IMG/VR virus record: IMGVR_UViG_3300036798_000599
Coordinates: 1-51,943 of that record
DNA length: 51,943 nt
Direction: 5' to 3' (one strand)
From: a virus
Taxonomy: Duplodnaviria > Caudoviricetes
Below are positions 1,507 to 51,943 of the stretch, one piece after another. Position numbers and translations under genes: made by a program. Position 1 is the first letter of the stretch. Every line of letters begins with the position of its first letter. Below the pieces are notes generated by a model, which saw only the letters and a list, made by a program, of their open reading frames with translations, was not told where the DNA came from and did no database searches.

Positions 1507-1671
1507 GATCGCCCGGTTCCGCGACAACCTCGCTTGCCGGTCGCCCGATTGCGATTGGCGCGAGGACGAGACGGGAGCGGTGCACTGCCGGGTCTGCGGT
1601 TCGGGCTATCGGGCAGACATGCGCGATCTCCTGCGGCGCCTTTATACGTCAACCTCTCAAGAGGCTGTCCC

Positions 1672-2197: not shown

Positions 2198-2206
2198 CCC
2201 AGCGCC

Positions 2207-2890: not shown

Positions 2891-3335
2891 CCCAGGTGAT
2901 CTTCGTCGCGAAATTCATCGCTGCATTGAGACGCTCCTCGTCGCCGGTCAAACGGTGAAATGGAAATGGCTCGTGACAGACGTACTCAATCGCCATCCGC
3001 TGCCACTTATTCCCGACCTTGACTTTAACGTCATATGCCGACGCCTGGCGGTGACCGACGCTGCTCGCGATGTTCTACGCGACCTGAAACTCGATGCCGA
3101 CGATCCAGCCAAGGCTTCCGGTTCGGGCACGATGCCGTTACCCGGTTTCCAACATTTGCAAGTCGCCTATCCGGTCGAACGCGACAATGAACTGGTCATC
3201 GTCCCGATCGACAAAATGACCGACGCCGAGCGGCTAGGGCGTGCTCTGCAGTATCGGGCAATGGCTCGCGGCTGCATTGCCCATGCCGAAGAACTTGAAC
3301 GCTACAGGGGCGATCTCGAGCACAAAGCAGGGTGA
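2880..3335 (+). CDS. Hypothetical phage protein (151 aa)
   Basis: GGAGG RBS; overlaps the previous gene. Confidence 0.7.
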   Translation: MAYSPGDLRREIHRCIETLLVAGQTVKWKWLVTDVLNRHPLPLIPDLDFNVICRRLAVTDAARDVLRDLKLDADDPAKASGSGTMPLPGFQHLQVAYPVERDNELVIVPIDKMTDAERLGRALQYRAMARGCIAHAEELERYRGDLEHKAG

Positions 3336-3336
3336 C

Positions 3337-4128: not shown

Positions 4129-4448
4129 TCACCATCTCCCTCACCCTCATCGACAAAACCCGAACCAAAGAACGCCCCGACAAATGGACCGCAACCACCA
4201 CCACCGACGGCAAATCCTTCTCCGCCACCTCCCGAATGAACCCCTGCTCCGACCTCGCCAGAGCCCTCGTCGCCGCCAATATCCCAGACCAACCCGTCCA
4301 ACTCTGGAACGACAACCTCAACCACTGGGCCCTCCGTTGGAAATCCCTCCACGCCATGGCACAATGGATGATCATCGATCCCCCCTCCTCCTACCTCCAC
4401 CGCGTCAAATACAAACCCCCACCCGAAAACTGGGCCAAAACCGAATAA
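4125..4448 (+). CDS. Hypothetical protein (107 aa)
   Basis: ATGA-coupled to the initiator; strongly G-poor codons. Confidence 0.6.
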   Translation: MITISLTLIDKTRTKERPDKWTATTTTDGKSFSATSRMNPCSDLARALVAANIPDQPVQLWNDNLNHWALRWKSLHAMAQWMIIDPPSSYLHRVKYKPPPENWAKTE

Positions 4449-4918
4449 CCATCCCACCCTTTTTGCAAACACCCTACCCTCCGACCTACCCCATTACCCA
4501 CAAAACCAATCCAGCGCCAAAATACCCCCAATGCCTACCTGCAAAACAGATGCAACCTTCGGGCGAAAAAGATGAGAGCTCATAAAATTTGCGAGGGGGT
4601 AGTCGATAAGAGCGCCCACCCCCATCGGCGGCGGCCGGGTGGCACGGGTGGGCCGCGGTGATCGGAACAGCACGACCATCCCGATCCTACACCAAATGAT
4701 GGGCTGAAGTATGGGTCAGCCGATCTGCCACCATACAACACCATTGATATTGCTCGCATAATTGCGTGATGATGGCGGACACCACATCCGCCGCACTGCC
4801 GAGAACATACCGAGAATTGTGGCGGAAATGCTCGATATGCGCGTGAGTGAGAGCATCGATCGGCTCGATTGGTTTTAGTGAATACGGATCACCGGCCGGT
4901 CATGCTGCATTTTTCTGA

Positions 4919-6734: not shown

Positions 6735-8597
6735 TCAAGCAGCCTTTGCCTCGAGCGCCGCGACCCGTGCGCTGAGTTCCTTCACCGCGTTAATCAGTGG
6801 CCAGATGAGGGCGGTTGGCTGCAGGGTGGCGATAGCGACGGTCTCGCCGTCGATCACCCCTTCGCGCGTTCCGGTGGCTTCGGGCAGGATGGCGGCGACG
6901 GCATCGGCGAGCAGGCCGTAGTGCCGCACGCCGTCGTCGGCGTAGTGCTCGACCTCGCCGTTCCATTGCCAGCTGACGGGGTCGAGTAACTCAACCTCGG
7001 CCAAGCCGGCTGTGTAGGGCTGGACATCGCGCTTTAGCCGGCTGTCGGATATATCGGCAAACCAGGCAAAGTCGCCGACATAGGTACTATCGATATAACC
7101 CGAGACGTGGCTGGCGCGCCGGTTGTTCCACGACATACCGATAGCGTTGGTTGAACCGAGCGCGGTGTACTGGACGCCGCTGCCGGCGATGGAGGCATTG
7201 CCGACAACACTCAGGTTATTCTGCCCCGGATCAGCGCCGGTGCCGATGATGACACCTTGCCTGATCTGCATCCGGGTGCCGGTCGTCGTCGACCCTGGCG
7301 TCGTTGTCACGACGTTGATGAGAGTGCCTTGCGCGGTATCGCTCCAAGCCTCGGCGGCGGCCACCAAGAGGGCCGTAGCCGCCGCGCCGTAGGTCGTGGC
7401 GCCGCGCCCGATGGTCTGCAGGGCGGCGATGACATCGCCTGACAGCAGGGCGCTGGGCGACGCCGGCGTGCCGCGCGACTTGCGGCCGATGAGGTTGGCA
7501 AAGGGTGCTGTGCCGTAGGCGTCGATCAGACAGACCGCGTTGGCACTGTCGGCGGCGAGCCACAGTTGCGGCGTGACGCTGACGGCCTGCGGTGTGGTCG
7601 CCGCGGCGTTGACCACCAAACTGTTCGCCGGCGGCGCGGTGACGGCGGTGCCGATGACCTGGTTGGTCGAGACCCTGAGCGTGGTGCCGTTGTCGCTGGT
7701 GATGGCAGACGAGGTGATCGCACTGGTGCCGTTGCCGACGAGCACAGCGTTGGCGGTGAGGGTCGTCTGCCCGGTGCCGCCGTTGGCGGTGAGCACCGGA
7801 ACCGAGAGCGCCATCGTGCCGGTCGTGGTGATGGTGCCGCCCGTGAGGCCCGTCCCGGCGACAAGGCTCGTCACGCCACTGCTCGTCACATAGCCTTGAT
7901 TGACGGCGGCGGTGACCAAGCCTTTAGCGTTGACGGTGATCCCCTGGAAGGTGCCGACATTGGCGTTGACGGTTGCCAGGGTTGTGGCGAGGCCAACACT
8001 GGTAACGTCTCCGGTGTGGTTGCCGACGCTGTTCGCCGTGACCAGCCCCTTGGCATTGGTGGTCAAGCTGGCATGGGCTGTGGCCCCCGGTGAGGCGTTG
8101 ACGGTTGGCAGGGTCGTGGTGATTGCCGTGGTGCCGGAACCGCTGACATCCCCGGACAGGGTGATGGTCTGGTTCCCGGTCAGATAGCTTTGGTTGACAG
8201 CGGCGGTGGCTTGGCCCTGAGCGTTGAAGGTGATGCCCTGGTAGGTGCCCGCGACGACGGCGGTGTTGGCGAGCGCAATGGTGCCCGTCGTCGTGATCGT
8301 GCCGCCGGAGAGGCCCGTCCCGGCGGTGATGCTGGTAACGCCGCCGCCGCCGCCCGTGCCGTAGCCCTGCGCCTTGACCCAAGCCGTCGTCGCGATCGCC
8401 GTTGAGTTGTCGGCGGTCGCCGGGGTGGTCGCGGTGGACCCGTCGAGCGCGGTGGTGCCGGCGACGGTCAATCCTCCGGTAATGGTGAGGTTGCCGTGAA
8501 TGGTGCCGCCGCTGGTGGAGAGGGTGCTGTCGTGGAGGAGGCCGATGCGGCGGTAGTTGCCGGCGGCGAGGCCCCAGTTTGAGTTGGTGTCGGGCAT
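6735..8597 (-). CDS. Tail fibre with C-terminal intramolecular chaperone (peptidase S74)
   Basis: Thr/Gly-rich repeats (VTSITAGTGLSGGTITTTGT x2); C-terminal SDSRLKRDV...GLLAD...LINAVKELSARVAALE. Confidence 0.88.
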   Translation of the reverse strand: MPDTNSNWGLAAGNYRRIGLLHDSTLSTSGGTIHGNLTITGGLTVAGTTALDGSTATTPATADNSTAIATTAWVKAQGYGTGGGGGVTSITAGTGLSGGTITTTGTIALANTAVVAGTYQGITFNAQGQATAAVNQSYLTGNQTITLSGDVSGSGTTAITTTLPTVNASPGATAHASLTTNAKGLVTANSVGNHTGDVTSVGLATTLATVNANVGTFQGITVNAKGLVTAAVNQGYVTSSGVTSLVAGTGLTGGTITTTGTMALSVPVLTANGGTGQTTLTANAVLVGNGTSAITSSAITSDNGTTLRVSTNQVIGTAVTAPPANSLVVNAAATTPQAVSVTPQLWLAADSANAVCLIDAYGTAPFANLIGRKSRGTPASPSALLSGDVIAALQTIGRGATTYGAAATALLVAAAEAWSDTAQGTLINVVTTTPGSTTTGTRMQIRQGVIIGTGADPGQNNLSVVGNASIAGSGVQYTALGSTNAIGMSWNNRRASHVSGYIDSTYVGDFAWFADISDSRLKRDVQPYTAGLAEVELLDPVSWQWNGEVEHYADDGVRHYGLLADAVAAILPEATGTREGVIDGETVAIATLQPTALIWPLINAVKELSARVAALEAKAA

Positions 8598-39912: not shown

Positions 39913-40116
39913 TCAGGGGGGAATGCCACAATCCCAGTCATAGGTGTTGGGGCCGTCCTCGCCCACCTTGGCGTCAGTGATGATCGCCGCATAACGATCA
40001 CCCGCCAAAAGACGGATCATCTGATCGATCACCCAGTTCTTGTGGTGATCGCCATCGATCTGCCCGTAGCGAACCGCGAGCTCGATGGCCTGGTCGATCC
40101 GCTCGCGGTCAGTCAT
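39913..40116 (-). CDS. Hypothetical phage protein
   Basis: YGQIDGDHHK.WVIDQM.R.L...WD.GI.P. Confidence 0.65.
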   Translation of the reverse strand: MTDRERIDQAIELAVRYGQIDGDHHKNWVIDQMIRLLAGDRYAAIITDAKVGEDGPNTYDWDCGIPP

Positions 40117-40139
40117 GCCACCACCCTCGCCGACTTCGC

Positions 40140-40259
40140 TCATTTGAATAACCAAACAAACACGACCACACCCCCTAATAAAGCCGCTGCACCAACGGCG
40201 GGAACTCCAATCCACACCATGAGGTTCCATAAGACCTCGTGATCTTCAATCCAACTCAT
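40140..40259 (-). CDS. Small TM protein flanked by 19-bp direct repeats
   Basis: 39 aa hydrophobic ORF with ATGA overlap to the integrase stop. Confidence 0.5.
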   Translation of the reverse strand: MSWIEDHEVLWNLMVWIGVPAVGAAALLGGVVVFVWLFK

Positions 40260-41389
40260 GCCACCACCCTCGCCTTGCGCCCGACCCGCGCCGCCGCGGT
40301 CTTCTCCATCGCCGCGCGGACATCGGCCACCTCGACCGCGGTGTAGCGCATCGTCGTCGCGATATCGGCGTGTCCGAGGAGTCGCTGCACGGTCTTGAGG
40401 TTGCCCACCGCCACCAGCGTCCGGGTCGCCGCGGTGTGGCGCAGGTCGTGGAACCGCAGGCCCGGCAACCCGGCTTCGCACCGGGCGCGGTCCCACTCCC
40501 GCCGCCAGCCATCGTGGCTAAAGGGGTAGCGCTCGCCCTTCTGCTGCACGATCCCCGTATGCGGGTCGTGGCGGTTGCGGGCGCAGACATAGGTAAAGAC
40601 CATCTCCGGATGGTTGCCGCGCTCGCGGGCGAGGACGGCGCGCACCGCATCGGTCAGCGGCACGACATGCAACGCACCCCCCGGTTTCTTTGACTTGGTG
40701 CGAAAGGTGATCCGCCCCTCATCCTCGTCCCAGTCGATCTGCCGCCACTCGAGGCCGAGGACGTTTTCGAGGCGCACCCCGGTCAACAGGGCGAACTCGA
40801 CGATCGGCCAGAAATCGGGGCGCAGGCATTGAAAGAAGCGTTCCTCATCGGCGTCGGAGAGGATCAGCTGCACCTTGTCGGGTTCGGGCAGCCACAGTGT
40901 CTTCCAGTGGATCTCGGGGATCCGCGCACCCCAACTCCGCGCCGCCAGCAGCACCGTACGCAGATGCGAGACTTCGCGGTTGACCGTGGCATTGGCGCGC
41001 TGGCGGGTCAGCACCTTGCCATAGCGCCTGGTCTTCACCTGGCGGCGGCGGGCGACAAAGCTCGAGAGATCGCGCGTTGTCAGGTCGCTGATAATGGTCC
41101 GCTCGCCGAGCTCCTTCAGCAATGTCGCTGAGTGCTGCGCGATCATCGCCGCCGATGCCACCGCCGAGCCGCGATCCTCCCAGTACTTGCCCAGCGCATC
41201 CGACAGCGACCACTCGGACCGCCGGGCGCCGTGCCTCAGCTTTTCTTCGGTGTAGACGCGCAGCGCGATCTCTTCCGCCTTGGCACGGGATTCTTCCTTA
41301 GTGCTGTCGCGAAATCGACGACCGTTGACCTGGAAGTCAAGAAACCAGTACGGCGACCCGGCGCGCCGGATGACGAGTGACTTGCGCAT
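40256..41389 (-). CDS. int: Tyrosine integrase
   Basis: TGVR, KSK, FHDLRHTAAT, LLGH and TMRY catalytic set; N-terminal arm-binding domain. Confidence 0.95.
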   Translation of the reverse strand: MRKSLVIRRAGSPYWFLDFQVNGRRFRDSTKEESRAKAEEIALRVYTEEKLRHGARRSEWSLSDALGKYWEDRGSAVASAAMIAQHSATLLKELGERTIISDLTTRDLSSFVARRRQVKTRRYGKVLTRQRANATVNREVSHLRTVLLAARSWGARIPEIHWKTLWLPEPDKVQLILSDADEERFFQCLRPDFWPIVEFALLTGVRLENVLGLEWRQIDWDEDEGRITFRTKSKKPGGALHVVPLTDAVRAVLARERGNHPEMVFTYVCARNRHDPHTGIVQQKGERYPFSHDGWRREWDRARCEAGLPGLRFHDLRHTAATRTLVAVGNLKTVQRLLGHADIATTMRYTAVEVADVRAAMEKTAAARVGRKARVVA

Positions 41390-41607
41390 GAGCGCTCCTG
41401 TCGCTGGATGTATTCAACAAGGTCGGCCGGGCGGTAGCGCCGGCGCGTCCCGATCAAGACGTATTTGAGGCGGCCTTCGTCGCGCTCGCGGCGCAGCACC
41501 GCCTTGGTCACACCGAGCAGGCGCTGCGTCTCCGACTCGTGGATCAGCAGACGCCCGTGGGCGACTTCCTTCAGCCGCTCAGCGGTCAGTTCGTCGATCG
41601 CGGTCAT
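41236..41607 (-). CDS. xis: Excisionase-like HTH protein
   Basis: ET..LLGV....LRR....G.L.YV.IG.RRRY...DL..YI; overlaps the int start. Confidence 0.75.
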   Translation of the reverse strand: MTAIDELTAERLKEVAHGRLLIHESETQRLLGVTKAVLRRERDEGRLKYVLIGTRRRYRPADLVEYIQRQERSCASHSSSGAPGRRTGFLTSRSTVVDFATALRKNPVPRRKRSRCASTPKKS

Positions 41608-41968
41608 GGGGGATGTCCGAAAGGAGAAGCTTCAACTCGACCAGCGCTGCGGCGTGACCCGCCAAGGCCTCGGCCCGCGTCGCATACCGCTGCCCATTCC
41701 AATCTGTCTCGAGCGAGCCGTAGTCACCGAAGACCATCGTCTCGTAGAGGATCGGCGGGCCTTCGCCGAACATGCTGGCAAAGCCGTGGTCGAGGGCGAG
41801 AAAGACGGTTGAGACCCAATGCCCGTCATCAAGGCGATCGAGGGCAACGTGGCGCTCAGCGGTCTGATACCAGCGCGCCCACCGATAGAGGTCCGGTTCC
41901 GGCACCGGGTTGCCCGCAGCGTCGAGAATGTATCTCCCCAGGACATTCTCTGGATCCGGGTTTTTCAT
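41579..41968 (-). CDS. Hypothetical phage protein flanked by ~37-bp direct repeats
   Basis: VSTVFL.LDH...P.LYETMVFG...RY.T..EA..GH motif. Confidence 0.7.
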   Translation of the reverse strand: MKNPDPENVLGRYILDAAGNPVPEPDLYRWARWYQTAERHVALDRLDDGHWVSTVFLALDHGFASMFGEGPPILYETMVFGDYGSLETDWNGQRYATRAEALAGHAAALVELKLLLSDIPHDRDRRTDR

Positions 41969-42183
41969 CGCTCAAGCCTCCCGCTGCGGTCAGTTCGTCG
42001 ATCGCGGTCATGGGGGGTGTCCTGCAATCGCGCGCGCAATCGCTCACGCAGAATCCATATTTCACGGCTGATGTGCTCAAAATCCGGGCCGAGATCCGCA
42101 TCGACGACGACGGCCGCGAAGCCCATGGCGGTCAATGCCCAGGTGAGGTTGGTGGCGGCCACAGTGATATCATTCCTGGTCAT
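41965..42183 (-). CDS. Hypothetical protein
   Basis: Coupled ORF, GGAG RBS. Confidence 0.5.
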   Translation of the reverse strand: MTRNDITVAATNLTWALTAMGFAAVVVDADLGPDFEHISREIWILRERLRARLQDTPHDRDRRTDRSGRLER

Positions 42184-42416
42184 GCCGTCTCCCTTTCCGG
42201 GAACACCACGCCCTTGCCGAATACCCACATGAAGCAGGTGTTGTCGTCGGCGTCGACGATGATCACCCGCCGCGTCGTGCCCATCCGCGCCCCGAGGCTC
42301 TCGGTCAGCCGCTTCGCCGCGTTCACCGCCGTCTCGGCATCGACGTGGTCGAGGTCGAGCATCGAGGTCTCGTCGGGGAAGAAGGCGTAGACCGAGAAGA
42401 GTTCATCGTCAGCCAT
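42180..42416 (-). CDS. Hypothetical phage protein
   Basis: FSVY.FFPD...RVII.D.DD.T.F.W..GKG..FP. Confidence 0.65.
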   Translation of the reverse strand: MADDELFSVYAFFPDETSMLDLDHVDAETAVNAAKRLTESLGARMGTTRRVIIVDADDNTCFMWVFGKGVVFPERETA

Positions 42417-42601
42417 CAGTCGTCGCCAAACAGAAGGGGTTCCCCAACGTGGGTCTTGAACCAACGCACCAGGTCATGCCCCGCGCGGTCGACCTCCATT
42501 GCTTTGCGAAAAGCTTCCTGCGCGAGCGCGCTCCAATTGAGGTCCTTGCGCCGTTGCATCGCCTCAAACAGATCTGGCGGCACATAAATACTGATCCTCA
42601 T
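42416..42601 (-). CDS. Ribbon-helix-helix protein (CcdA/MetJ-Arc-like)
   Basis: MRISIYVPPDL......LNWSALAQEAFRKA. Confidence 0.7.
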   Translation of the reverse strand: MRISIYVPPDLFEAMQRRKDLNWSALAQEAFRKAMEVDRAGHDLVRWFKTHVGEPLLFGDD

Positions 42602-42618
42602 CTGGATGCCCTGTTGAG

Positions 42619-42987
42619 ACGTTGCGCTGCGGGGCGGAGCCGGGAGCGGCGATGCGGTGCGAGGCGGAGCGAAGCGGGGAGCAGCGAAGCGATGCGATAC
42701 GTAGCGATGCGATGCGGAGGAAATAGAAGAGAAGGAGAGAAACGTTGCGTTGCGACGAGGAGTGCTGCGGGGAGCCGAGGGGCGAGGCGGCGCGGCGCGG
42801 GGCGGCGAGGAGCGCCGCGGAGCGGAGACGTTGCGTTGCGTTGCGAGGAGGCGTGGAGCGGAGAGTTGCGGGACAGCGCGATGCGAGGTGCTGCGCTGAG
42901 TTGCGTTGCGAAACGAGGCGTTGCGCGGCGCTGTGCTGAGGCGCGAAGAGGTGCGGAGCGAAGCGCGGCGCGGAGGCGCGGAGCGGT
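42619..42987 (-). ncRNA. Pentamer array block A (tracts A1 42619-42718, A2 42742-42826, A3 42828-42987); putative guide RNAs
   Basis: 20, 17 and 32 in-phase (G[CAT]G-NN) pentamers on +; each starts with ACGTTGCG. RNA status is inferred. Confidence 0.7.
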
Positions 42988-42990
42988 GAA

Positions 42991-43512
42991 CTAGGCATTT
43001 TTATTCCGCCGCGGGCTTAGGGTGATCATCCATTCGACGGCATTGAAAGAGGGCAGATCGTTCGAGGTGCCGCGAGCCACTTTCTCGATACGCCGGGTTG
43101 TTGCTTTGCTGAGGGCATCGCGGGCCAGTTCGCGAATAATCGAACTGACCGCGAATTTGGCCTGCTGCCGGATGTCCAACAGATCGAGATCGACGACGTC
43201 CGCCTGCCTGGCCCCATTGCGCAATTTGTTTGTCGCGCCGAGCAGATACCAATTCCTTTGCCGATCGGCGATTTCGGGATCATTCAACCGGACAACCCCG
43301 ACCTTCGGCTGGATACAACTCCATACGGCGTTGTGGTCGCGCTCGAGGATCTTGCGAGCGTAATGCAAGATATGACTTTCACTGGTGATGCGCGCGCTGA
43401 CGGCGTCCGACAGTTCCTTGTAAGTAAGGCGCGTGCCCTTATCGAAGGCCGCGAGATACCGGACCAGTGAAGCTGTCAGTTCCGAGCGTTCGAACTTCGG
43501 CATTTGGGTCAT
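42991..43512 (-). CDS. Winged-helix-like accessory protein embedded between arrays
   Basis: GTRLTYKELSDAV...HILHYARKILERDH...GVVRL wHTH-like N-terminus; helical C-terminus. Confidence 0.6.
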   Translation of the reverse strand: MTQMPKFERSELTASLVRYLAAFDKGTRLTYKELSDAVSARITSESHILHYARKILERDHNAVWSCIQPKVGVVRLNDPEIADRQRNWYLLGATNKLRNGARQADVVDLDLLDIRQQAKFAVSSIIRELARDALSKATTRRIEKVARGTSNDLPSFNAVEWMITLSPRRNKNA

Positions 43513-43526
43513 GTCCCCTGATCAAG

Positions 43527-43727
43527 ACGTTGCGTTGCGGCGAGGAGCGGTGCGCGGCGTGACGCTGCGACGGGATGCGGCGAGGAGCGGCGAGATGCGA
43601 GGAGCTGTGCCGCGAAGTGTCGCGTGGTGCTGCGGCGCGAGGCGACGCGTGGCGCCGAGCCGACGTTGCGTTGCGAGGAGTTGTGCGGTGATGAGACGCG
43701 CGGCGGTGTGGGGCGATGCGTAGTGTT
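43527..43727 (-). ncRNA. Pentamer array block B (B1 43527-43661, B2 43663-43727); putative guide RNAs
   Basis: 27 and 13 in-phase pentamers with the ACGTTGCGTTGCG boundary motif. Confidence 0.7.
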
Positions 43728-43731
43728 GTCT

Positions 43732-44319
43732 TCACAAGGTGAGGTCCGTCCATTCAAATTTCGTCGCGCGGAACCGGCCGTTCTTACCGCCTTTTTCGGC
43801 GCGGTAGCGACCGACGCCGACGATCATCCCGGCGGCCTTCACGTGGTCCTCGAAGATCTCCGGCGTGATGATGTCGTCGACGATCGTGAACTCCGCGACC
43901 CCGGCCCATTTTGCGAACTCCGGGAACCGCCGTTTCACGCGCTTGCCGGAACCGCGAACGCCATCGGCATTCGCATTGATCGCAATTATCTTGGAGTCTT
44001 CTTTGGTCAAAGCCTTGCCGTTCGCGATCGGCATATCCTCGTTGCAGAAGAACCCGGACGCGAAAAAGTTCTTGTACGTTGCGCCGCGACGGTTCGGCAC
44101 TTTCATGCCGAGTTTATAGGCTGCGGTGTCGATGCACTGCTTGAGTCCCATTGCCGGGATGCACACCTGCCCCTCCTCGTTCGTCGTGCATTTTTCCCGG
44201 CACGTCCGAATATCGTAATCGTCATGGCCTTCGCGATCGAGCATCGCCGTCTCGTGTTGGGCAGACTGGCTGTAGGGCGATCCTGGAATGCTCTCAAGAT
44301 GAACGCGGCATAGACGCAT
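43732..44319 (-). CDS. RAMP/Cas7-like RNA-binding protein
   Basis: N-terminal strand + SP; GQVCIPAMGLKQCI (cf. RAMP IPGSSLKG helix); C-terminal Gly-rich loop GVGRYRAEKGGKNGRF; GGAGG RBS; no other cas genes. Confidence 0.72.
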   Translation of the reverse strand: MRLCRVHLESIPGSPYSQSAQHETAMLDREGHDDYDIRTCREKCTTNEEGQVCIPAMGLKQCIDTAAYKLGMKVPNRRGATYKNFFASGFFCNEDMPIANGKALTKEDSKIIAINANADGVRGSGKRVKRRFPEFAKWAGVAEFTIVDDIITPEIFEDHVKAAGMIVGVGRYRAEKGGKNGRFRATKFEWTDLTL

Positions 44320-44342
44320 GGGCTTACCCTCCCTTCAATGAA

Positions 44343-44538
44343 ACGTTGCGTTGCGTAGAGCGGAGACGCGGGGCAATGCGACGCGCGGCGTCGAGCCGCG
44401 TTGCGTGGCGAAGCGATGAGTAGAGAGGCGACGCGCGGCGGGGTGCGGCGGCGTGAAGCGATGCGGGACGACGAGATGACGTTGCGTTGCGTTGTGTTGC
44501 GGTGCGGTGCGGAGCGCTGTGTTGTGCTGCGGCGCGAG
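44343..44538 (-). ncRNA. Pentamer array block C (C1 44343-44477, C2 44479-44538); putative guide RNAs
   Basis: 27 and 12 in-phase pentamers with the ACGTTGCGTTGCG boundary motif. Confidence 0.7.
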
Positions 44539-44556
44539 GCAGAATCTCGATGATCA

Positions 44557-44760
44557 TCAGTCGTCCTCCCCGCGTCGCCGATTGGCGTGCATTTTTATGA
44601 CCTGCGCCCCCATCCGCTCCAATTGCCGCAGCACCTCCTCGGCGACGCGGTGGGCGATATAGCTGGGGTCGAGGGGCCGGTTGTCCTGGCCCACCCGGCG
44701 CAAGGCCTCGGCCACCTCCTCCTCGATCAGCCGGCGCAACAGGTCGGTCTCGTCGGTCAT
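44557..44760 (-). CDS. Hypothetical protein
   Basis: Coupled helical ORF immediately upstream of array C. Confidence 0.6.
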   Translation of the reverse strand: MTDETDLLRRLIEEEVAEALRRVGQDNRPLDPSYIAHRVAEEVLRQLERMGAQVIKMHANRRRGEDD

Positions 44761-44981
44761 GCTTCCTCGTCATCCTCGAGAAAATCGCTGACGTCGCGAA
44801 ACAGCTTCATCGCCCCCATCGCGAGCCCGCCCAACGCCTCGTTGCTCCAGGTCGTGTGCCACCGATCATCAATGCGGACGACGCACATGACAGCCTCGAC
44901 ACCCTCGCGCTCAAGGATCCGGTGCAGCACCACACGCCACGGCAGCTTGTCCGGGTCGAGCAGCAGGATCTTCTCAGCCAT
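44757..44981 (-). CDS. Hypothetical protein
   Basis: Coupled ORF. Confidence 0.55.
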   Translation of the reverse strand: MAEKILLLDPDKLPWRVVLHRILEREGVEAVMCVVRIDDRWHTTWSNEALGGLAMGAMKLFRDVSDFLEDDEEA

Positions 44982-45152
44982 CCTACTCGGCCGCCAGCCG
45001 GGGCCGCCGCGGTCCGCGTTGGCGCGGCTCCTTGTAGAGGACAGCGAGCGCCCGCCGCATTGCCTCGAGCCAGACCTCGCGCTCCTTCTCGGACCACGAC
45101 GTCCCGGGCTTGGGCAGCCGCCCGACCAGCGCCTCGATGACCGGGTTCTCTG

Positions 45153-45362
45153 TCATTTCTGTCCTTTCGCTGGCCAGGGATCGGGCATGGCGATCTCGTG
45201 AACACGTCCCTCGGGCAAATAGCGGTTGGCACGCGCCATGATGTCCAGGGCTTCCCCTTTATCGTAGCGACCGGCGGCCAGTAGGCTGGTGACGTAGCCC
45301 TGCCATCCCGGGCCCCACCACGCGCCGGGTCCCTCGCTCCAGACGACCCACTTCTCGCTCAT
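45153..45362 (-). CDS. Hypothetical phage protein
   Basis: VWS...AWW.P...GY......AGRY...EA..I. Confidence 0.6.
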   Translation of the reverse strand: MSEKWVVWSEGPGAWWGPGWQGYVTSLLAAGRYDKGEALDIMARANRYLPEGRVHEIAMPDPWPAKGQK

Positions 45363-45547
45363 CGCCGCCCCTTCTTCGCCGGCACCACCTTCTCGCCCTT
45401 GTGCAGCTTGTAGGTGCCCGTCTTCGGCACGCGACCGCCCTTCTTAAAGCTGCCGATCGCGCCCGCCGTATCCGCCGGGACTCCCTGGCTCTCCATAAAG
45501 GCCTGCTGGGCGGATTTGGCGGGTACGGTTTTCTTGCGGGTAGCCAT
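45359..45547 (-). CDS. Small basic protein with FKKGG.V...LHKGE.V motif
   Basis: 62 aa, Lys-rich. Confidence 0.6.
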   Translation of the reverse strand: MATRKKTVPAKSAQQAFMESQGVPADTAGAIGSFKKGGRVPKTGTYKLHKGEKVVPAKKGRR

Positions 45548-45550
45548 CAG

Positions 45551-45796
45551 TCACTTCTCCAATTGCTCGAGGATCATCCGCTCGTTGACGGGGATCAGCG
45601 CTCTGACCGTCTCAAGCCAGAGCGACAACTCGGCCTCGCGATAGTCGGCGGGTTGATGCCCGGCCAGCCACATCGCCACGAGATCGGCGAGGATCCCGCC
45701 CTGGATATCCGGCCCCAGACCGGCCAGCAGGGGCCGGATCTGCGCAGCCCGTTCGACAATCTCGACGGCCTTGGCGCCGGCGCTGCGGGTGGCCAT
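45551..45796 (-). CDS. Hypothetical protein
   Basis: GGAG RBS; I.PLLAG..P.IQG..LADL.A.WLAGH. Confidence 0.6.
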   Translation of the reverse strand: MATRSAGAKAVEIVERAAQIRPLLAGLGPDIQGGILADLVAMWLAGHQPADYREAELSLWLETVRALIPVNERMILEQLEK

Positions 45797-45933
45797 CAGT
45801 GTTTCTCCGGGAGCAGGGCCTGAATCATCCCGCCGGGCGGGCGATGGCGGTAACGCTCGTAGAGCACGGCGATGGCAATGCCGATGACGAGGCCGATCAC
45901 CGTGCCGAGGAAGAAGGACGCGACCTCGATCAC
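45796..45933 (-). CDS. Small TM protein
   Basis: GTG start overlapping the upstream stop; FFLGTVIGLVIGIAIAVLY. Confidence 0.45.
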   Translation of the reverse strand: MIEVASFFLGTVIGLVIGIAIAVLYERYRHRPPGGMIQALLPEKH

Positions 45934-46067
45934 AGCACACCCGCCAGGAAGAGCGCGCCGAGCAGCAGCAGCATCCACAGCACCAGCGACAACGGGGCGC
46001 CGCGGCACATCCCGGCAAAGAAGGATTTCCGGAGGGTCAGGTCGTCGTTTCCGGCTGCTTCGGCCAT
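45930..46067 (-). CDS. Small TM protein, first gene of the leftward early operon
   Basis: GGAG RBS; hydrophobic C-terminal half. Confidence 0.5.
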   Translation of the reverse strand: MAEAAGNDDLTLRKSFFAGMCRGAPLSLVLWMLLLLGALFLAGVL

Positions 46068-46095
46068 GGCGGCTCTCCGCCGAGGGGGAGAGCTG

Positions 46096-46147
46096 ACGAT
46101 GCTGGACATCCCGTCCACTGTCAAAACAAAAAATGGACAGGCCGTCC
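46096..46147 (-). promoter_or_regulatory. PL-like promoter with two GGAC-N5-GTCC operators
   Basis: Minus-strand TTGACA (46124-46119), 17 nt, CATCGT (46101-46096); operators at 46104-46116 and 46135-46147. Confidence 0.75.
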
Positions 46148-46249
46148 GGTGACGCGTAAAAATTGCAATCCCCAATTTGTTTCTGCGACAGTGTGCCGCT
46201 TATCGCCGAGCAACGCGCCGATCCTTCGGAACCCCCACCGGAGAAGCAG

Positions 46250-46441
46250 ATGCCCCAAAAACCGCATCAGTTAATGACGCGCATGCAATACATCGAGGCC
46301 CTTGTGGGCGAGGCGCTGGCTTTTAATCGGGGGGTTGGCAAAACCCGGAAGGTCCGGGCGGCGTTGCTGGTGTCGGCGCTCCGCGAACTTCAGCAGGGAG
46401 AGCGGGAGGTGGCAGAAATCAGTCAGGACCGACGAGAATAA
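46250..46441 (+). CDS. Small protein convergent with the repressor
   Basis: GGAG RBS, ATG 46250; 3' overlap with the repressor gene. Confidence 0.45.
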   Translation: MPQKPHQLMTRMQYIEALVGEALAFNRGVGKTRKVRAALLVSALRELQQGEREVAEISQDRRE

Positions 46442-46643
46442 ACTCGATCGATTTGTTCACCAGCTTGGAAAATTTTGGCAGATACTCGGGGGGCAGCTTG
46501 CCGCGCTGCTCCCATTTTTGATAGCGGGTCAGGGCCACATCCAAGAGTTCCGCCATCACGCGCTGTGACCAGCCTCGTTCCTTGCGCAACTCCTTTATTC
46601 GCATCGAGACGCCCTTGTTAGGTGGCGAGACCTTACTGGCCAC
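46419..46643 (-). CDS. CI-like XRE repressor (HTH only; start uncertain)
   Basis: RIKELRKERGWSQRVMAELLDV...YQKWEQRG; divergent from the cro-like gene. Confidence 0.8.
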   Translation of the reverse strand: MASKVSPPNKGVSMRIKELRKERGWSQRVMAELLDVALTRYQKWEQRGKLPPEYLPKFSKLVNKSIEFILVGPD

Positions 46644-46690
46644 AGGCCTGACCTCTGAGAGACCGATCACATAACATTGATTATCAAACC

Positions 46691-46766
46691 GGACAATATG
46701 TCCGCACAAGCAGACGCTCCGTCCATCCGCCTTGTCCTTGACTGAGATGGACGCTCTGTCCATAGT
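46691..46766 (+). promoter_or_regulatory. OR-like region: three operators and a PR-like promoter
   Basis: GGACAATATGTCC 46691-46703, AGACGCTCCGTCC 46712-46724, GGACGCTCTGTCC 46749-46761; TTGACT 46738-46743, 17 nt, CATAGT 46761-46766. Confidence 0.8.
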
Positions 46767-46773
46767 TTTGGGC

Positions 46774-46977
46774 ATGCAGGCACAGAGCTGGGAAACGATC
46801 GAACGGATCGCCCTGAGCTTGGGAATCGGCCAGGAGGCGGTCCGCAAGTGGCGCACGCGCGGGGTGCCACGGGCCTGGCGGCTCGATCTTTTGCGCGCCG
46901 ATACGCGCCGCGAAATCAACGAGGACGATTTCGACCACCCGCCGGGGCCACGCCGCCAATGTCGGGCCGCCGAGTGA
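46774..46977 (+). CDS. Cro-like HTH protein
   Basis: IA.SLGI..EAVRKWR.RGVP..WR..L; nearly leaderless after the PR-like promoter. Confidence 0.75.
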   Translation: MQAQSWETIERIALSLGIGQEAVRKWRTRGVPRAWRLDLLRADTRREINEDDFDHPPGPRRQCRAAE

Positions 46978-47029
46978 TCTGAGCCGGAGGGCGCCGCGAC
47001 ACGGGGATAAGCCGGATGGACGGGGACCA

Positions 47030-47464
47030 ATGACCGCGCGTTTCCGCCTCACCGCCCCGGCGCCCTCGGAGCGCGACATCCACGCCAGCTGCGCCCGCGC
47101 CCTCGACCTGCTCCTGCAGCCCCCGGCGCTGTGGTGGACCTACCCCGCCGGCGCCGCGCAACTCTCCCCCCAGCAGCAGGCGGCCTATTCGCGCATCGGT
47201 TTGAAGCGCGGCCTGCCCGACATCATGATCCTCCACGGCGGGCTCTACGGGATCGAACTCAAACGCCGCGGCGGCCGGGTCTCCAAGACAAAGATCGTCC
47301 ATACCCGGCGCGGCACGCCCCGCGAGCTCCTCGGCCAGGAGGACATGTTCCCGCGCCTCATCGCCGCCGGAATGAAAGAGATCGCCATCGCCCACAGCGT
47401 CGACGAGGTGCTCGGCCATCTCACCCGCTGGGGCGTGCCACTCCGCGGGAGGGTCGCGGCATGA
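47030..47464 (+). CDS. VRR-NUC-family nuclease (Holliday junction resolvase-like)
   Basis: SERDIH...GLKRGLPDI...IELKRRGGRVS...Q motif. Confidence 0.8.
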   Translation: MTARFRLTAPAPSERDIHASCARALDLLLQPPALWWTYPAGAAQLSPQQQAAYSRIGLKRGLPDIMILHGGLYGIELKRRGGRVSKTKIVHTRRGTPRELLGQEDMFPRLIAAGMKEIAIAHSVDEVLGHLTRWGVPLRGRVAA

Positions 47465-48321
47465 CCAAAATGCTCTGTATCTGGCACGGCAATTGTCAGG
47501 ACGGGTTTGGCGCCGCCTGGGCGGTGCATCATGCCCTTGGTGAAGAGGCCGTCGAGTTCTACCCCGGCGTCTACCAGAACCCGGCGCCGGATGTGACGGG
47601 ACGCCATGTGCTCTTTGTCGACTTCAGCTACAAGCGGCCGGTGATCGAGGAGATGGCGAAGACCGCTCGGTCGATCACGATCTTGGACCACCACGCCAGC
47701 GCCGCCGACGACTTGGCCGGATACCCGCCGCCCGGCTTCAACTACCCGCCGTTCGGGCCCGTCGCCAAGGTCACGGCCCTCTTTGACATGGAGCGCTCGG
47801 GCGCCGGCCTCACCTGGGATTTCCTCCACCCCAACCAGCCACGCCCGCTGTTGATCGACCACATCGAGGACCGCGACTTGTGGCGGTTCAAGCTGCCTTA
47901 CACGCGCGAGATTTCGGCGGCGCTATTTTCCTACCCCTACGATTTTGCGGTGTGGGACAGGCTGATGGACGACAGCTCGCACCTGGTCAGCGAAGGCGAA
48001 GCAATCGAGCGCAAGCAGGCGCAGGACATTCGCAACCTCCTCCCCGTCGTGCAGCGCCGCATGACGATCGGCGGGATCGACATGCCCGTCGCCAACCTGC
48101 CAATGACCCTGACCTCCGACGCCGGCCACAAGATGGCGGCGGCGGAAACCGGCGGCGTGGCCGCGTGCTACTGGGACACACCCCAAGGTCGGGTGTTCTC
48201 GCTGCGGTCGACCGAGCTCGGTCCCGATTGCCAGGCGATCGCCGTCCAATACGGCGGCGGCGGTCACCTCCACGCGGCCGGCTTCCGCATGCCGATCGGC
48301 TGGGAGGGTGAGGCGGCATGA
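47461..48321 (+). CDS. DHH/DHHA1 phosphoesterase (repeat copy)
   Basis: Identical translation to 416-1276. Confidence 0.9.
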   Translation: MTKMLCIWHGNCQDGFGAAWAVHHALGEEAVEFYPGVYQNPAPDVTGRHVLFVDFSYKRPVIEEMAKTARSITILDHHASAADDLAGYPPPGFNYPPFGPVAKVTALFDMERSGAGLTWDFLHPNQPRPLLIDHIEDRDLWRFKLPYTREISAALFSYPYDFAVWDRLMDDSSHLVSEGEAIERKQAQDIRNLLPVVQRRMTIGGIDMPVANLPMTLTSDAGHKMAAAETGGVAACYWDTPQGRVFSLRSTELGPDCQAIAVQYGGGGHLHAAGFRMPIGWEGEAA

Positions 48322-49251
48322 GCATCCCCTTCCGCCGCCTCGCCGAACTCACCGAGACCCCCGAGGACTACGGCATCGTCACCGTCCTCCTGCGCGCGGT
48401 GGTGATGTACCCCGAGGTCGCCGCCGAACTGTGCGGCCGCAACATCAAGACCTACGCCGATCGCGGCCAGGCCGTCACCGACGCCGTACGCCTGATCGAC
48501 GGCGACACTTCACCCCTGACCAACGGAGCTAGCGATGCTCTCCAAGTGTGAGATCGCCCGGTTCCGCGACAACCTCGCTTGCCGGTCGCCCGATTGCGAT
48601 TGGCGCGAGGACGAGACGGGAGCGGTGCACTGCCGGGTCTGCGGTTCGGGCTATCGGGCAGACATGCGCGATCTCCTGCGGCGCCTTTATACGTCAACCT
48701 CTCAAGAGGCTGTCCCATGTCAAGCAAATCACCCGCGCAAGCCCGGCTCATGGCCGCCAGCGCACACAACCCCGCCTTCGCCAAGAAGGCCGGCGTGCCG
48801 GTGAAGGTCGCGAAGGAGTTCAACCAAAGTGACGCCAAGACCGGCATCCTGCGGAAGAAGAAAGGCAGGTGACCATGAACGTAGCCGATTGCGAAGCGCT
48901 GCGGCGCGAATTGAAGCCGATCGCCGAGAAGCTCTGGGAACTGCGCCGGCCGCCGATGGGCGGTCTTGGCGAACCCGCCGAGGCCTATGCCAACGTGACG
49001 ATCGCCTACCGAAAGCTCGAGGACGCCTCGATGCGGCTCGGCAAGGCGATCCAGGCGCTCGACGGCGGAATTTCGGTCTACGACAAGACCCAGGTGACAT
49101 CATGAAATCAAAATCTTCCACCCGCTCCGACACCGCCCAGGACCGCGCCATCGTCACCCGCGGCGTCCACCAGCACGAAGCCAACCTACACAAGGGCAAA
49201 GCCAAAACCAAACTCAAGCTCGGCGGCAAGAAAGGTAAGTGACCCAGCGCC

Positions 49252-49935
49252 ATGTCCGCGCCGCTCGACCACGACCAATTGCCAGCTATCGCCAGTGCTC
49301 CGCTGCCGGCGACATACGAAGCTGCGAGGCGCGCACTAGAGCAATGCTATCAACTCGATGAATGTCTAATGTGGGCTAACAAGGCCGAGGCGCTCGCTTC
49401 CTATGCACGGCAATCGCATGATGACGCGCTGCGGCGGATGGCCGATCGCATCCAAGCTCGCGCGATCCGGCGATGCGGCGAACTCCTACAGCAGATCGAA
49501 CCGGCGAAGACCGGACCAAAACCGGAATTAAAGGACGGGGCCGTCCCGCAATTAGGTCGTACTGAAGCCGCAGATGATGCCGGTCTATCCGAACGCCAGC
49601 GTAAGACCGCGCTTCGCGTTGCTAACATTCCGGAAGCCGAATTTGAGACTGCTATCGAAAGTGACAAACCGCCGACCGTCAGCAGCCTCGCCGAACGCGG
49701 GACCGTAAAACGTCCGGTTCCGGATTACCTGAACGGGCGCGATCCGGACGATTTCAAACGGGCGACGCATCTCATCGGTCTCGGTACTTACATCACGGGA
49801 CATATTGCTGAAATCGATCTCGTCGCCGCTCGCCGCGGTCTCGATGCCGCTGAGCGCGAGCAGGTCATTACGACGTTCGGCCAGTGCATCGACTGGCTAA
49901 CCGCAGCACGGAGGTTTGTGATCGATGGCTTATAG
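49252..49935 (+). CDS. Hypothetical protein (repeat copy of 2207-2890)
   Basis: Identical translation. Confidence 0.7.
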   Translation: MSAPLDHDQLPAIASAPLPATYEAARRALEQCYQLDECLMWANKAEALASYARQSHDDALRRMADRIQARAIRRCGELLQQIEPAKTGPKPELKDGAVPQLGRTEAADDAGLSERQRKTALRVANIPEAEFETAIESDKPPTVSSLAERGTVKRPVPDYLNGRDPDDFKRATHLIGLGTYITGHIAEIDLVAARRGLDAAEREQVITTFGQCIDWLTAARRFVIDGL

Positions 49936-50380
49936 CCCAGGTGATCTTCGTCGCGAAATTCATCGCTGCATTGAGACGCTCCTCGTCGCCGGTCAAACGG
50001 TGAAATGGAAATGGCTCGTGACAGACGTACTCAATCGCCATCCGCTGCCACTTATTCCCGACCTTGACTTTAACGTCATATGCCGACGCCTGGCGGTGAC
50101 CGACGCTGCTCGCGATGTTCTACGCGACCTGAAACTCGATGCCGACGATCCAGCCAAGGCTTCCGGTTCGGGCACGATGCCGTTACCCGGTTTCCAACAT
50201 TTGCAAGTCGCCTATCCGGTCGAACGCGACAATGAACTGGTCATCGTCCCGATCGACAAAATGACCGACGCCGAGCGGCTAGGGCGTGCTCTGCAGTATC
50301 GGGCAATGGCTCGCGGCTGCATTGCCCATGCCGAAGAACTTGAACGCTACAGGGGCGATCTCGAGCACAAAGCAGGGTGA
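49925..50380 (+). CDS. Hypothetical protein (repeat copy of 2880-3335)
   Basis: Identical translation. Confidence 0.7.
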   Translation: MAYSPGDLRREIHRCIETLLVAGQTVKWKWLVTDVLNRHPLPLIPDLDFNVICRRLAVTDAARDVLRDLKLDADDPAKASGSGTMPLPGFQHLQVAYPVERDNELVIVPIDKMTDAERLGRALQYRAMARGCIAHAEELERYRGDLEHKAG

Positions 50381-50381
50381 C

Positions 50382-51173
50382 ATGCCCGCGCCTCTCGTCC
50401 CGCCCGACACCGTCATCCCCCGCCTGCCGTGGGTCCCGGTCTATGCCGCTCGATTGTTCGAGAGTGATTTCTTCGCCGTCGCCACCGACGCCGAGTTCCG
50501 CGCCGCTATCTGCCTCTGGCTCAAGTCATGGAACCAGAAACCCCCCGGCTCCCTGCCAAACAATGATCGCGTGCTCTGCCGGCTCGCAGGGTTGGCCGAC
50601 GACATCGATCAGTGGCGCAGCGTCAAGCGGGTCGCCATGCGCCATTGGAAACGCTGCGACGACGGCCGCCTCTACCATCCCGTCGTCGCAGAGCTCGTCA
50701 TGGATGCCGCAAATCGATTGTCAACCGCGCGTAACAGAACTGCGGCAGCGACCGCAGCTCGTTGGAAAACAACAAAAGATGAAATCCGTAACGGTATCCG
50801 TAACGGACGTAACCTTGACAGGGAGAGGGATAGTCCGCCTTCTACAAAGGCGGACCCTCTCCCCCCTTACCCCCCTCCCCACGGGAAGGGGGGGTCGCTC
50901 CCGCCCTCCAGCTCGCTCAATGAGCGAGGGCGGTTCGCGACGGATCGGCAAGCCACCGAACAGCACGAACTCTACGCCGCCATCAACCAAATGCGCTTCG
51001 ACCGCGGCGACGCCTCCCGCGCCGGCAAACTCTCCGCATGGGACGCCGAATACGGCGCAAAACTCGACGCCGCCTGCAAACGGCTGGCCCAACTGCAAGA
51101 CGAGGAACGCGGCCACCCCGATGAGGAAACCTTCACGCCCCTCGCCACCATCGTCGCCACTCTCCGCTCATGA
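50382..51173 (+). CDS. DUF1376 replication protein (repeat copy)
   Basis: Identical translation to 3337-4128. Confidence 0.8.
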   Translation: MPAPLVPPDTVIPRLPWVPVYAARLFESDFFAVATDAEFRAAICLWLKSWNQKPPGSLPNNDRVLCRLAGLADDIDQWRSVKRVAMRHWKRCDDGRLYHPVVAELVMDAANRLSTARNRTAAATAARWKTTKDEIRNGIRNGRNLDRERDSPPSTKADPLPPYPPPHGKGGSLPPSSSLNERGRFATDRQATEQHELYAAINQMRFDRGDASRAGKLSAWDAEYGAKLDAACKRLAQLQDEERGHPDEETFTPLATIVATLRS

Positions 51174-51493
51174 TCACCATCTCCCTCACCCTCATCGACA
51201 AAACCCGAACCAAAGAACGCCCCGACAAATGGACCGCAACCACCACCACCGACGGCAAATCCTTCTCCGCCACCTCCCGAATGAACCCCTGCTCCGACCT
51301 CGCCAGAGCCCTCGTCGCCGCCAATATCCCAGACCAACCCGTCCAACTCTGGAACGACAACCTCAACCACTGGGCCCTCCGTTGGAAATCCCTCCACGCC
51401 ATGGCACAATGGATGATCATCGATCCCCCCTCCTCCTACCTCCACCGCGTCAAATACAAACCCCCACCCGAAAACTGGGCCAAAACCGAATAA
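51170..51493 (+). CDS. Hypothetical protein (repeat copy of 4125-4448)
   Basis: Identical translation. Confidence 0.6.
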   Translation: MITISLTLIDKTRTKERPDKWTATTTTDGKSFSATSRMNPCSDLARALVAANIPDQPVQLWNDNLNHWALRWKSLHAMAQWMIIDPPSSYLHRVKYKPPPENWAKTE

Positions 51494-51943
51494 CCATCCC
51501 ACCCTTTTTGCAAACACCCTACCCTCCGACCTACCCCATTACCCACAAAACCAATCCAGCGCCAAAATACCCCCAATGCCTACCTGCAAAACAGATGCAA
51601 CCTTCGGGCGAAAAAGATGAGAGCTCATAAAATTTGCGAGGGGCTAGTCGATGAGAACGACCACCCCCATCGGCGGCGGCCGGGGTGGCAGGGGTGGGCC
51701 GTGGCGATCGGAGATGAAGGAGGGTCGCGAACAGCTCGATCAGTCACTGAATGATGGGTACAAGTATGGGACAGCCGATCTGCCACCACCAATACCATTG
51801 ATATTGCTTGTACAATCAGCTGAGTTAGGCGGATACCACATCCGCCGCACTGCCGAGAACATACCGAGAATTGTGGCGGAAATGCTCGATATGCGCGTGA
51901 GTGAGAGCATCGATCGGCTCGATTGGTTTTAGTGAATACGGAT

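What the first reader, a model, noticed from the sequence alone, without database searches (positions are those of the whole stretch)
42619..44491. Conserved tract-end motif with a 1-nt phase slip defines individual guide units
Seen: every tract begins on + with ACGTTGCGTTGCG (42742, 42828, 43527, 43663, 44343, 44479; one mismatch at 42619). In the transcript each therefore ends ...CGC-AA-CGC-AA-CGU. Where tracts abut, a single extra G (42827, 43662, 44478) breaks the phase. Blocks B and C share a layout of a short tract (13/12) followed by a 27-mer tract in transcript order. A GAGTT GCGTT step at 42898 may mark a cryptic eighth unit. Each block ends within ~25 nt of the next gene's start codon. 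Inference: this motif is a 3' handle, processing site or recombination anchor for guide acquisition and exchange in a polycistronic early transcript.
Basis: partly seen in the sequence, partly recalled or inferred. Interest (0 to 1): 0.75.

Follow-up and report, generated by a model that had tools for sequence, protein, structure and literature searches.

The report
Phage VIPR guide-RNA arrays, CGC type
The repeats are most likely the guide RNAs of a phage VIPR system, a CRISPR-related silencing system first described in 2026, built here on CGC units instead of the usual GGY units.

Summary
The 13-nt motif sits at all seven stated places (8 hits within one mismatch, 0.18 expected). It closes seven tracts of strict 5-nt periodicity in three intergenic blocks.

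The blocks flank a 195-aa gene (43732-44319, minus strand). Its family profile matches the solved SUSP1 Vipr protein (E 7e-8). Its model has a Cas7-like RAMP fold. So this is a VIPR locus, as described in 2026 preprints: Vipr filaments bind RNAs made of pentamers with three fixed and two variable bases plus an invariant 3' tail.

The same tail and periodicity recur in 76 IMG/VR stretches; 48 of them also carry a vipr homologue.

Not shown: RNA ends and any target. A local gapped search found no target. My idea that an Asp-to-Arg change explains G1-to-C1 was refuted.

Verdict: a new member of a known kind, with a non-canonical repeat. "Recombination anchor" has no support.

The parts
44479..44536 (-). 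vrRNA-like tract C1: 12 units (9 variable, then CGCAA x2, then CGU)
   Evidence: Unit walk from the tail; variable and tail count; periodic block.
44343..44475 (-). vrRNA-like tract C2: 27 units. Its tail ends 23 nt before the vipr ATG.
43732..44319 (-). vipr gene: 195-aa RAMP (Cas7-like) protein, the predicted binder of the pentamer repeats
   Evidence: ORF. No Pfam family; phrog_4652 of unknown function. Profile A1 hits PDB 36pp_D 'SUSP1 Vipr protein' at E 7.2e-8. hhalign 98.5% to the Vipr of Pseudomonas phage LESphi2. AF2 pLDDT 94.2. Top Foldseek matches are type VII Cas7 and Csm3, E about 6e-7.
43663..43725 (-). vrRNA-like tract B1: 13 units
43527..43659 (-). vrRNA-like tract B2: 27 units. 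Its tail ends 14 nt before the ATG of the 173-aa gene.
42991..43512 (-). Probable vap (vipr-accessory) gene: 173 aa with an N-terminal winged-helix-like topology and long helices
   Evidence: ORF. Homologue beside vipr in 20 of 78 loci, 10 of them at 53-67% identity. AF2 pLDDT 81.8 with an H-E-H-H-E-E N-terminus. Only weak Foldseek matches (E 0.01 or worse), all to MarR/GntR-type regulators. Weak profile match to the MGMT winged helix, E 0.05.
42828..42985 (-). vrRNA-like tract A3: 32 units with a 3-copy CGCAA tail. It has an internal in-phase CGCAA CGCAA at 42898-42910 and may be two guides.
42742..42824 (-). vrRNA-like tract A2: 17 units
42719..42741 (-). Pyrimidine-only spacer between the A2 tail and tract A1
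42619..42716 (-). vrRNA-like tract A1: 20 units. Its tail has one mismatch and ends 17 nt before the ATG of the 61-aa gene.

Best explanation
The region 42619-44536 is a VIPR (Viral Interference Programmable Repeat) locus of a temperate phage of about 47 kb.

Proposed parts. The minus strand carries seven, perhaps eight, vrRNAs. Each is a run of pentamers C-G-Y-N-N: three constant bases and two hypervariable bases.

Proposed mechanism, by analogy with the solved SUSP1 system. One Vipr protomer (43732-44319) binds each pentamer and hides the constant triplet. It presents the NN pairs, which together read a double-stranded DNA target in an NN-skip-NN-skip register. The filament then silences transcription of a competing phage, prophage or satellite. 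The 173-aa winged-helix-like protein would be the accessory Vap.

Shown here: the sequence anatomy, the Vipr homology and fold, the recurrence of tail plus periodicity next to vipr in many viral contigs, and strand evidence from relatives.

Inferred: transcription, processing at the tail, Vipr binding to CGY units, the 1-nt-skip code, and the nature of the targets.
For: Protein. The A1 profile hits the SUSP1 Vipr chain at E 7.2e-8. It aligns at 98.5% probability over 170 columns with the Vipr-like ORF of phage LESphi2. That ORF is itself preceded by GGC/NN repeats on its own strand. The model is confident and Cas7-like.

RNA anatomy matches what the discovery preprint 10.64898/2026.04.26.720920 describes (Results and Methods sections read). 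It describes tandem pentamers with a fixed triplet and variable NN, an invariant 3' tail, long intergenic arrays flanking vipr, a vap gene, phage context, and staggered arrays with 1-nt offsets.

Unit statistics. In 254 tracts (4829 units) from the window plus 78 loci, position 2 is G 78%, A 10%, T 9% and C 3%. Positions 4 and 5 are near uniform. Positions 1 and 3 were the selection criterion.

Association. A DNA pattern alone fetched 76 IMG/VR stretches, and 48 of them encode a Vipr homologue. 136 of 170 tail matches have a periodic upstream context.

Strand.
- On the vipr-sense strand the consensus triplet is CGC in 53 of the 55 loci with Arg at the G-loop position, the window among them; the other two read CAC and CGA.
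- In the LESphi2 clade, which was fetched by protein, the sense strand reads GGC or GGT in 36 of 53 loci.
- In L025 a three-hairpin element follows each tail. All 15 one-sided changes are G-U on the vipr-sense strand with 0 pairs broken, whereas the other strand shows C-A or A-C breaks.
- In close GGC-type relatives the AA-unit tail also lies at the 3' end next to the next gene's RBS.

Turnover. Ten syntenic loci keep the vipr-vap order, but 0 guide pairs share 70% or more of their NN positions.

Phage context. Integrase PF00589, HTH_17 and HTH_3 are nearby.
Against: No RNA evidence: the only holders are soil-metagenome DNA runs.

No target found. The 7 window guides and 208 unique guides from all loci gave no match above shuffled or reversed guides under skip 0, 1 or 2, in 0.75 Mb of window plus loci. 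NN composition does not discriminate codon registers.

The constant triplet is CGY, not the GGY for which binding and structure were shown.

The tail is a 13-18 nt repeat-like string, without the roughly 40-nt structured tail or pseudoknot of the SUSP1 clade.

Two guides have 24 variable units, against the published 9-16.

The Vap assignment rests on weak fold matches.

The window itself holds no strand evidence beyond co-orientation. A consensus scan found no promoter or terminator inside the blocks.
Confidence: 0.85

Rival explanations
1. It is a VIPR locus, but the functional RNAs come from the plus strand (units G-C-G-N-N), antisense to vipr, with the 13-nt motif as a 5' handle.
For: The unit is strand-symmetric (CGC/GCG), so the sequence of the window alone cannot decide. 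The plus strand is G-rich like canonical vrRNAs.
Against: The tracts are co-oriented with vipr in every locus checked, as in the canonical clade. In L025 G-U pairs occur only on the vipr-sense strand. This reading would put a purine in the Y3 pocket that the cryo-EM preprint says excludes purines, and it would change two constant positions instead of one. In GGC-type relatives the AA tail is 3' of the tract.
Confidence: 0.05
2. The VIPR machinery is the same but the purpose differs. The guides regulate the phage's own or the host's genes (for example the lysis-lysogeny switch), or act as decoys against a rival's VIPR, rather than silencing competing elements.
For: The locus lies between the immunity region and the integrase. 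The October 2026 preprint reports decoy-directing and VIPR-targeting vrRNAs (abstract only seen). No external target was found here.
Against: No self-match above shuffles was found in the 51.9-kb contig under skip 0-2. The published clades gave no self-targeting hits.
Confidence: 0.15
3. These are not guides. The tracts are C-rich unstructured spacers such as Rho-loading sites, or DNA-level repeats such as iterons or recombination hot spots, that merely sit next to a RAMP-like gene.
For: The RNA would be C-rich and G-poor: plus-strand GC skew reaches +0.40 in block A. The tracts lie between genes of one operon.
Against: The 5-nt register is strict, with two free positions. The tail is invariant. 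The tracts recur next to vipr homologues of only 32-73% identity while the NN content turns over completely. Close relatives have the canonical GGY/NN form in the same layout.
Confidence: 0.03

Closest known systems
Type II VIPR systems (Escherichia phage SUSP1, Pseudomonas fulva prophage); a like locus was seen here in Pseudomonas phage LESphi2 (OQ594955.1)
   Same: A small RAMP protein of about 190 aa. Arrays of tandem pentamers with 3 fixed and 2 variable bases on the vipr strand, before and after vipr. An invariant 3' tail. An adjacent small accessory gene. A temperate-phage early region near the repressor.
   Different: The unit is CGY/NN, not GGY/NN. The tail is (CGCAA)2-3 CGU, itself made of repeat-like units with NN = AA, with no predicted hairpin or pseudoknot. 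The guides have up to 24 variable units against 9-16. Protein identity is too low for tblastn to find SUSP1. The match to SUSP1 Vipr covers only profile positions 96-182.
Non-canonical VIPR arrays reported in the COMPASS preprint (10.64898/2026.10.21.760802) and the 'related consensus' types of the discovery preprint
   Same: 5-nt periodic arrays with a fixed triplet other than GGY next to Vipr-like folds. GAC/NN, CAC/NN, WGT/NN and TGH/NN are named (passages read). I saw GAC/NN arrays myself in L252 and L253 and one CAC-dominated locus, L051.
   Different: 'CGC' and 'CGY' occur nowhere in the searchable text of either preprint. The logos are in figures (S17, S10) and data files I could not see, so this unit may or may not be listed already.
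Class 1 CRISPR backbone (Cas7/Csm3 on crRNA)
   Same: The fold: the best Foldseek matches are type VII Cas7 and Csm3. One protomer per fixed step of the guide. A glycine-rich loop.
   Different: There is no repeat-spacer array, no cas genes and no adaptation genes in the window. The step is 5 nt with 2 read bases, not 6 nt with 5.

Membership tests
VIPR system | A Vipr protein: a minimal RAMP with an RRM core, a G-loop and a thumb | tested here: met
   Profile hit to the solved SUSP1 Vipr at E 7.2e-8. hhalign 98.5% to the LESphi2 Vipr-like ORF. Confident Cas7-like model. A conserved G-x-G-R-[FYW]-R...G-R-F loop.
VIPR system | Tandem pentanucleotide repeats with a fixed triplet and hypervariable NN, flanking vipr on its strand | tested here: met
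   Seven tracts with 148 units. Positions 4 and 5 are near uniform and position 2 is G 78%. The fixed triplet is CGY, not the canonical GGY.
VIPR system | An invariant 3' tail after the repeat tract | tested here: met
   A 13-nt tail at 7 of 7 tracts. 136 tails with periodic context in relatives. The tail is short and unstructured in the window. L025 and L043 add hairpins after it.
VIPR system | An accessory vap gene with a predicted DNA-interaction domain | tested here: inconclusive
   The 173-aa neighbour is conserved in 20 of 78 loci. It has winged-helix-like topology but only weak matches.
VIPR system | Discrete vrRNAs are expressed and co-purify with Vipr | not testable with these tools
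   No RNA run holds the stretch.
VIPR system | DNA targets matching the NN string with a 1-nt skip | tested here: inconclusive
   Nothing above shuffled guides in 0.75 Mb. The public collections were not searched with gapped patterns.
Hammerhead-interspersed VIPR arrays | Hammerhead ribozymes between guides | tested here: not met
   No Rfam match in window 40000-47500 at E up to 1, in L025 1200-4100 at E up to 1 apart from chance miRNA rows, or in 14 loci at gathering score.
CRISPR array | Direct repeats of 23-50 nt alternating with unique spacers; cas genes nearby | tested here: not met
   TRF and the pentamer layout show only 5-nt and derived periods. The neighbours have no Cas families in Pfam.

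The most novel reading that the evidence does not exclude
The CGY/NN arrays mark a distinct specificity class of VIPR that is common in phages of soil Alphaproteobacteria. Vipr would read C instead of G at constant position 1. The filament would be ended by a run of fixed AA units rather than by a folded cap. Close relatives with identical G-loops use GGC, GGT, GAC or CGC units. So the fixed triplet is an evolvable, possibly orthogonal 'address' that keeps co-resident VIPR systems from loading each other's guides, and its determinant lies outside the G-loop residue implicated in SUSP1.
Probability: 0.35. Interest if true: 0.6.

Novelty: new member of a known kind. Interest (0 to 1): 0.4.

Why it matters
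VIPR is a months-old class of RNA-guided DNA recognition, so each well-described natural variant helps define what the protein tolerates.

This locus, and the roughly 50 related loci gathered here, give three things:
- a clade whose fixed triplet differs at one position from the characterised one;
- a minimal tail made of repeat units;
- guides up to 24 variable units long.

They also include close relatives that use other triplets. Together these are ready material for testing how Vipr chooses its RNA, whether systems are orthogonal, and how guides are delimited. For annotation, the tail plus the periodicity is a cheap DNA signature that finds such loci without a protein search.

Tried and rejected
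1. Rfam: no family matched in the window region or in relatives. No tRNA was found in L025.

2. blastn of 42400-44800 against 50,697 phage records: no match. tblastn with Vipr gave only weak partial hits, one of which led to LESphi2.

3. Target search with skip 0-3: only the self-locus at skip 3, which served as a sanity check. Otherwise nothing was above shuffled or reversed guides. The high k=1 scores all fell on one low-complexity spot of L060, and the controls hit it equally.

4. NN dinucleotide usage against codon positions: KL 0.066 for positions 1-2 on both strands, against 0.072 for a uniform model. Inconclusive.

5. 'Asp-to-Arg explains G1-to-C1'.
- Across two clades the association looked perfect: 53 of 55 Arg loci read CGC, and 36 of 53 Asp loci read GGC or GGT.
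- Nine loci fetched with a third relative broke it. Of the 7 with Arg, 4 read GGC, 1 GGT, 1 nGC and 1 CGC. The 2 with Phe read GAC.
- Rejected as a rule.

6. Genome contigs.
- The protein-pattern scan found nothing.
- Five others are plain (CGTTG)n-type microsatellites, and the rest are single matches without tracts.

7. No RNA holder is listed among public runs. Laying soil DNA contigs added nothing on RNA ends.

8. Two relatives with other G-loop residues (P0137, P0241) gave no viral locus.

10. The first periodicity script over the loci hit its time limit, after printing all 78 loci.

11. The guide-length script missed most tails with three or more CGCAA copies. For its 93 unique guides the median was 13 variable units, with a 10-90% range of 7-28.

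Full report
**What is there.** The window is a single 51.9-kb viral contig. Between 42602 and 44556 lie three intergenic blocks of 389, 219 and 237 bp. They separate small genes that all run on the minus strand. On the plus strand the blocks are the only places in the window where G recurs at one 5-nt phase in at least 90% of units. Laid out in fives they read N-N-G-C-G.

That is 8 hits within one mismatch against 0.18 expected by chance.

Read on the minus strand, each of seven tracts is a run of C-G-Y-N-N units ending in CGCAA CGCAA (CGCAA) CGT. The unit counts are 12, 27, 13, 27, 32, 17 and 20 in transcript order. The last tail of each block stops 23, 14 and 17 nt before the next start codon.

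**What it is.** The gene between blocks C and B (43732-44319, 195 aa) has no Pfam family and only a PHROG of unknown function.

A pattern made of the motif plus two periodic units fetched 76 stretches from IMG/VR. Most of them carry several period-5 tracts. 48 of the 76 encode a homologue of this protein at 32-73% identity. A homologue of the next gene (42991-43512, 173 aa) is present in 20 of the 78 loci held at that point.

A profile of 31 of these proteins matches one solved chain, 36pp_D 'SUSP1 Vipr protein', at E 7.2e-8. The AlphaFold model is confident, with pLDDT 94.2. Its best structural matches are type VII Cas7 and Csm3.

This led to the preprints on VIPR systems:
- 10.64898/2026.04.26.720920: Results, Discussion, the type-classification Methods section and the figure legends were read.
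- 10.64898/2026.04.26.720927: sections 5 and 6 were read.
- 10.64898/2026.10.15.759431: only the abstract and outline were seen.

They describe phage-borne loci with a small ancestral RAMP (Vipr) and an accessory vap gene. The flanking intergenic arrays encode vrRNAs of tandem pentamers. GGY is held by the protein and NN is hypervariable. An invariant 3' tail follows the tract. The NN pairs read double-stranded DNA with one base skipped per unit, and binding silences transcription. The anatomy of the window fits this description point for point, apart from the fixed triplet and the form of the tail.

**Which strand.** The unit CGC/GCG is strand-symmetric, so relatives were needed. Four lines agree on the vipr-sense strand.
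- In Pseudomonas phage LESphi2 (reached through) a Vipr-like ORF aligns with our profile at 98.5% probability. It is preceded by GGC/NN tracts with structured tails on its own strand.
- In 52 further loci fetched with that protein, the vipr-sense strand reads GGC or GGT. Counting L079, that is 36 of 53 loci; 9 had no array by my criterion and the rest were ambiguous in register.
- In L025 each tail is followed by a three-hairpin element. On the vipr-sense strand all 15 one-sided changes give G-U and no pair is broken. On the other strand the same changes give C-A or A-C.
- In L255, a closer relative with canonical GGC/NN units, the tracts end in a run of units with NN = AA just before the RBS of the next gene. 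This is the same layout as here.

On that strand the window's unit differs from GGY/NN at position 1 only.

**How it most likely works.** By homology, Vipr protomers would bind one per CGY/NN unit and present 9 to 24 NN pairs per guide. These would direct the filament to DNA of a competing element. None of this was tested directly.
- There is no RNA run for this DNA.
- A search of the window and all loci (0.75 Mb) with the NN strings under skip 0-3 recovered only the guides' own loci at skip 3. Everything else was at the level of shuffled or reversed guides.
- NN composition does not tell codon registers apart.
- Syntenic loci keep vipr and the vap-like gene, but none of 21 guides is shared. 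That is the turnover expected of guides.

**An idea that failed.** In SUSP1 the first G is read by H17 and D177. In our family the residue aligned with D177 is an invariant Arg. Across the two clades Arg went with CGC and Asp with GGY.

I then fetched loci of a third relative. Five of its seven Arg-type loci use GGC or GGT, one uses nGC and one CGC. The two Phe-type loci use GAC. G-loops of CGC-type and GGC-type proteins can be identical. So the residue is not the determinant, and the fixed triplet changes among close relatives.

**Spread of the family.** The profile finds 3335 cluster representatives at E up to 0.001 and 598 at E up to 1e-30. Among the best 150, the position aligned with D177 is Arg in 89 and Gln, Ser, Val or other residues in 30. 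My pattern did not place it in the other 31, some of which visibly carry Arg.

**Comparison and novelty.** VIPR as a kind is known. Non-canonical triplets are also reported: 21 of 99 period-5 clusters, with GAC, CAC, WGT and TGH named (10.64898/2026.10.21.760802, passages read). The discovery preprint mentions 'related consensus' repeats and staggered arrays with 1-nt offsets.

Neither text contains 'CGC' or 'CGY'. But the logos are in figures and data files I could not see. I therefore file this as a new member of a known kind.

Its particular features are:
- the CGY unit;
- a short tail built of AA units without a fold;
- long guides;
- arrays in three successive intergenic regions.

Named hosts of related genomic loci are Rhizorhabdus, Beijerinckiaceae, Rhodospirillales and Nevskia. 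Database names of close proteins point to Xanthobacteraceae and Acetobacteraceae MAGs. The DNA occurs in soil metagenomes.

**Verdict.** The 'recombination anchor' part has no support.

Noticed in passing
window 1-4898 and 47046-51943: The two ends of the contig repeat each other at an offset of 47,045 bases, but only 4718 of 4898 positions are identical (96.3%). This is not an exact terminal redundancy. It may be a circular genome of about 47 kb assembled across two strains, or a true diverged long repeat.
   Followed up: partly
L025 1370-3960 (also L043): Here the guides alternate with a conserved three-hairpin element of about 75 nt that follows each tail. There are 12 copies, with compensatory and G-U changes on the vipr-sense strand. 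It has no Rfam match and is not a hammerhead by Rfam. It may be a cap or a processing module.
   Followed up: partly
L252, L253; L254-L259; L051: Close relatives of this Vipr use other fixed triplets on the sense strand: GAC/NN (G-loop Phe), GGC/NN and GGT/NN (G-loop Arg), nGC/NN, and CAC/NN in L051. The GGC-type tails contain a CGCAA unit among GGCAA units.
   Followed up: partly
L016 5831-6415 (-): The vipr homologue (73% identity) has one in-frame stop at the position of a conserved Tyr. It is either a pseudogene or a sequencing error.
   Followed up: no
window 44488-44537: One low-depth soil contig of run X2 'goes back 50', that is, it carries a 50-nt (10-unit) tandem duplication inside tract C1. 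It is a single contig at depth 3, so only a weak hint of change in unit number by slippage.
   Followed up: no
L094, L097, L110, L129, L165: The search pattern also hits plain (CGTTG)n-like microsatellites in Rodentibacter, Haemophilus and Metamycoplasmataceae records. These are periodic on both strands and have no vipr nearby. They are unrelated to VIPR.
   Followed up: partly
window 40256-41607 and 46419-46604: The VIPR locus lies inside a leftward gene run bounded by a Cro/CI-type HTH_3 gene on one side and by an HTH_17 excisionase-like gene plus a tyrosine integrase on the other. LESphi2 is similar, with its array just downstream of the CI repressor.
   Followed up: partly
L060 about 6990-7010: A low-complexity spot attracts the best skip-1 scores of many unrelated guides and of their shuffled versions. 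It is a trap for gapped target searches.
   Followed up: no
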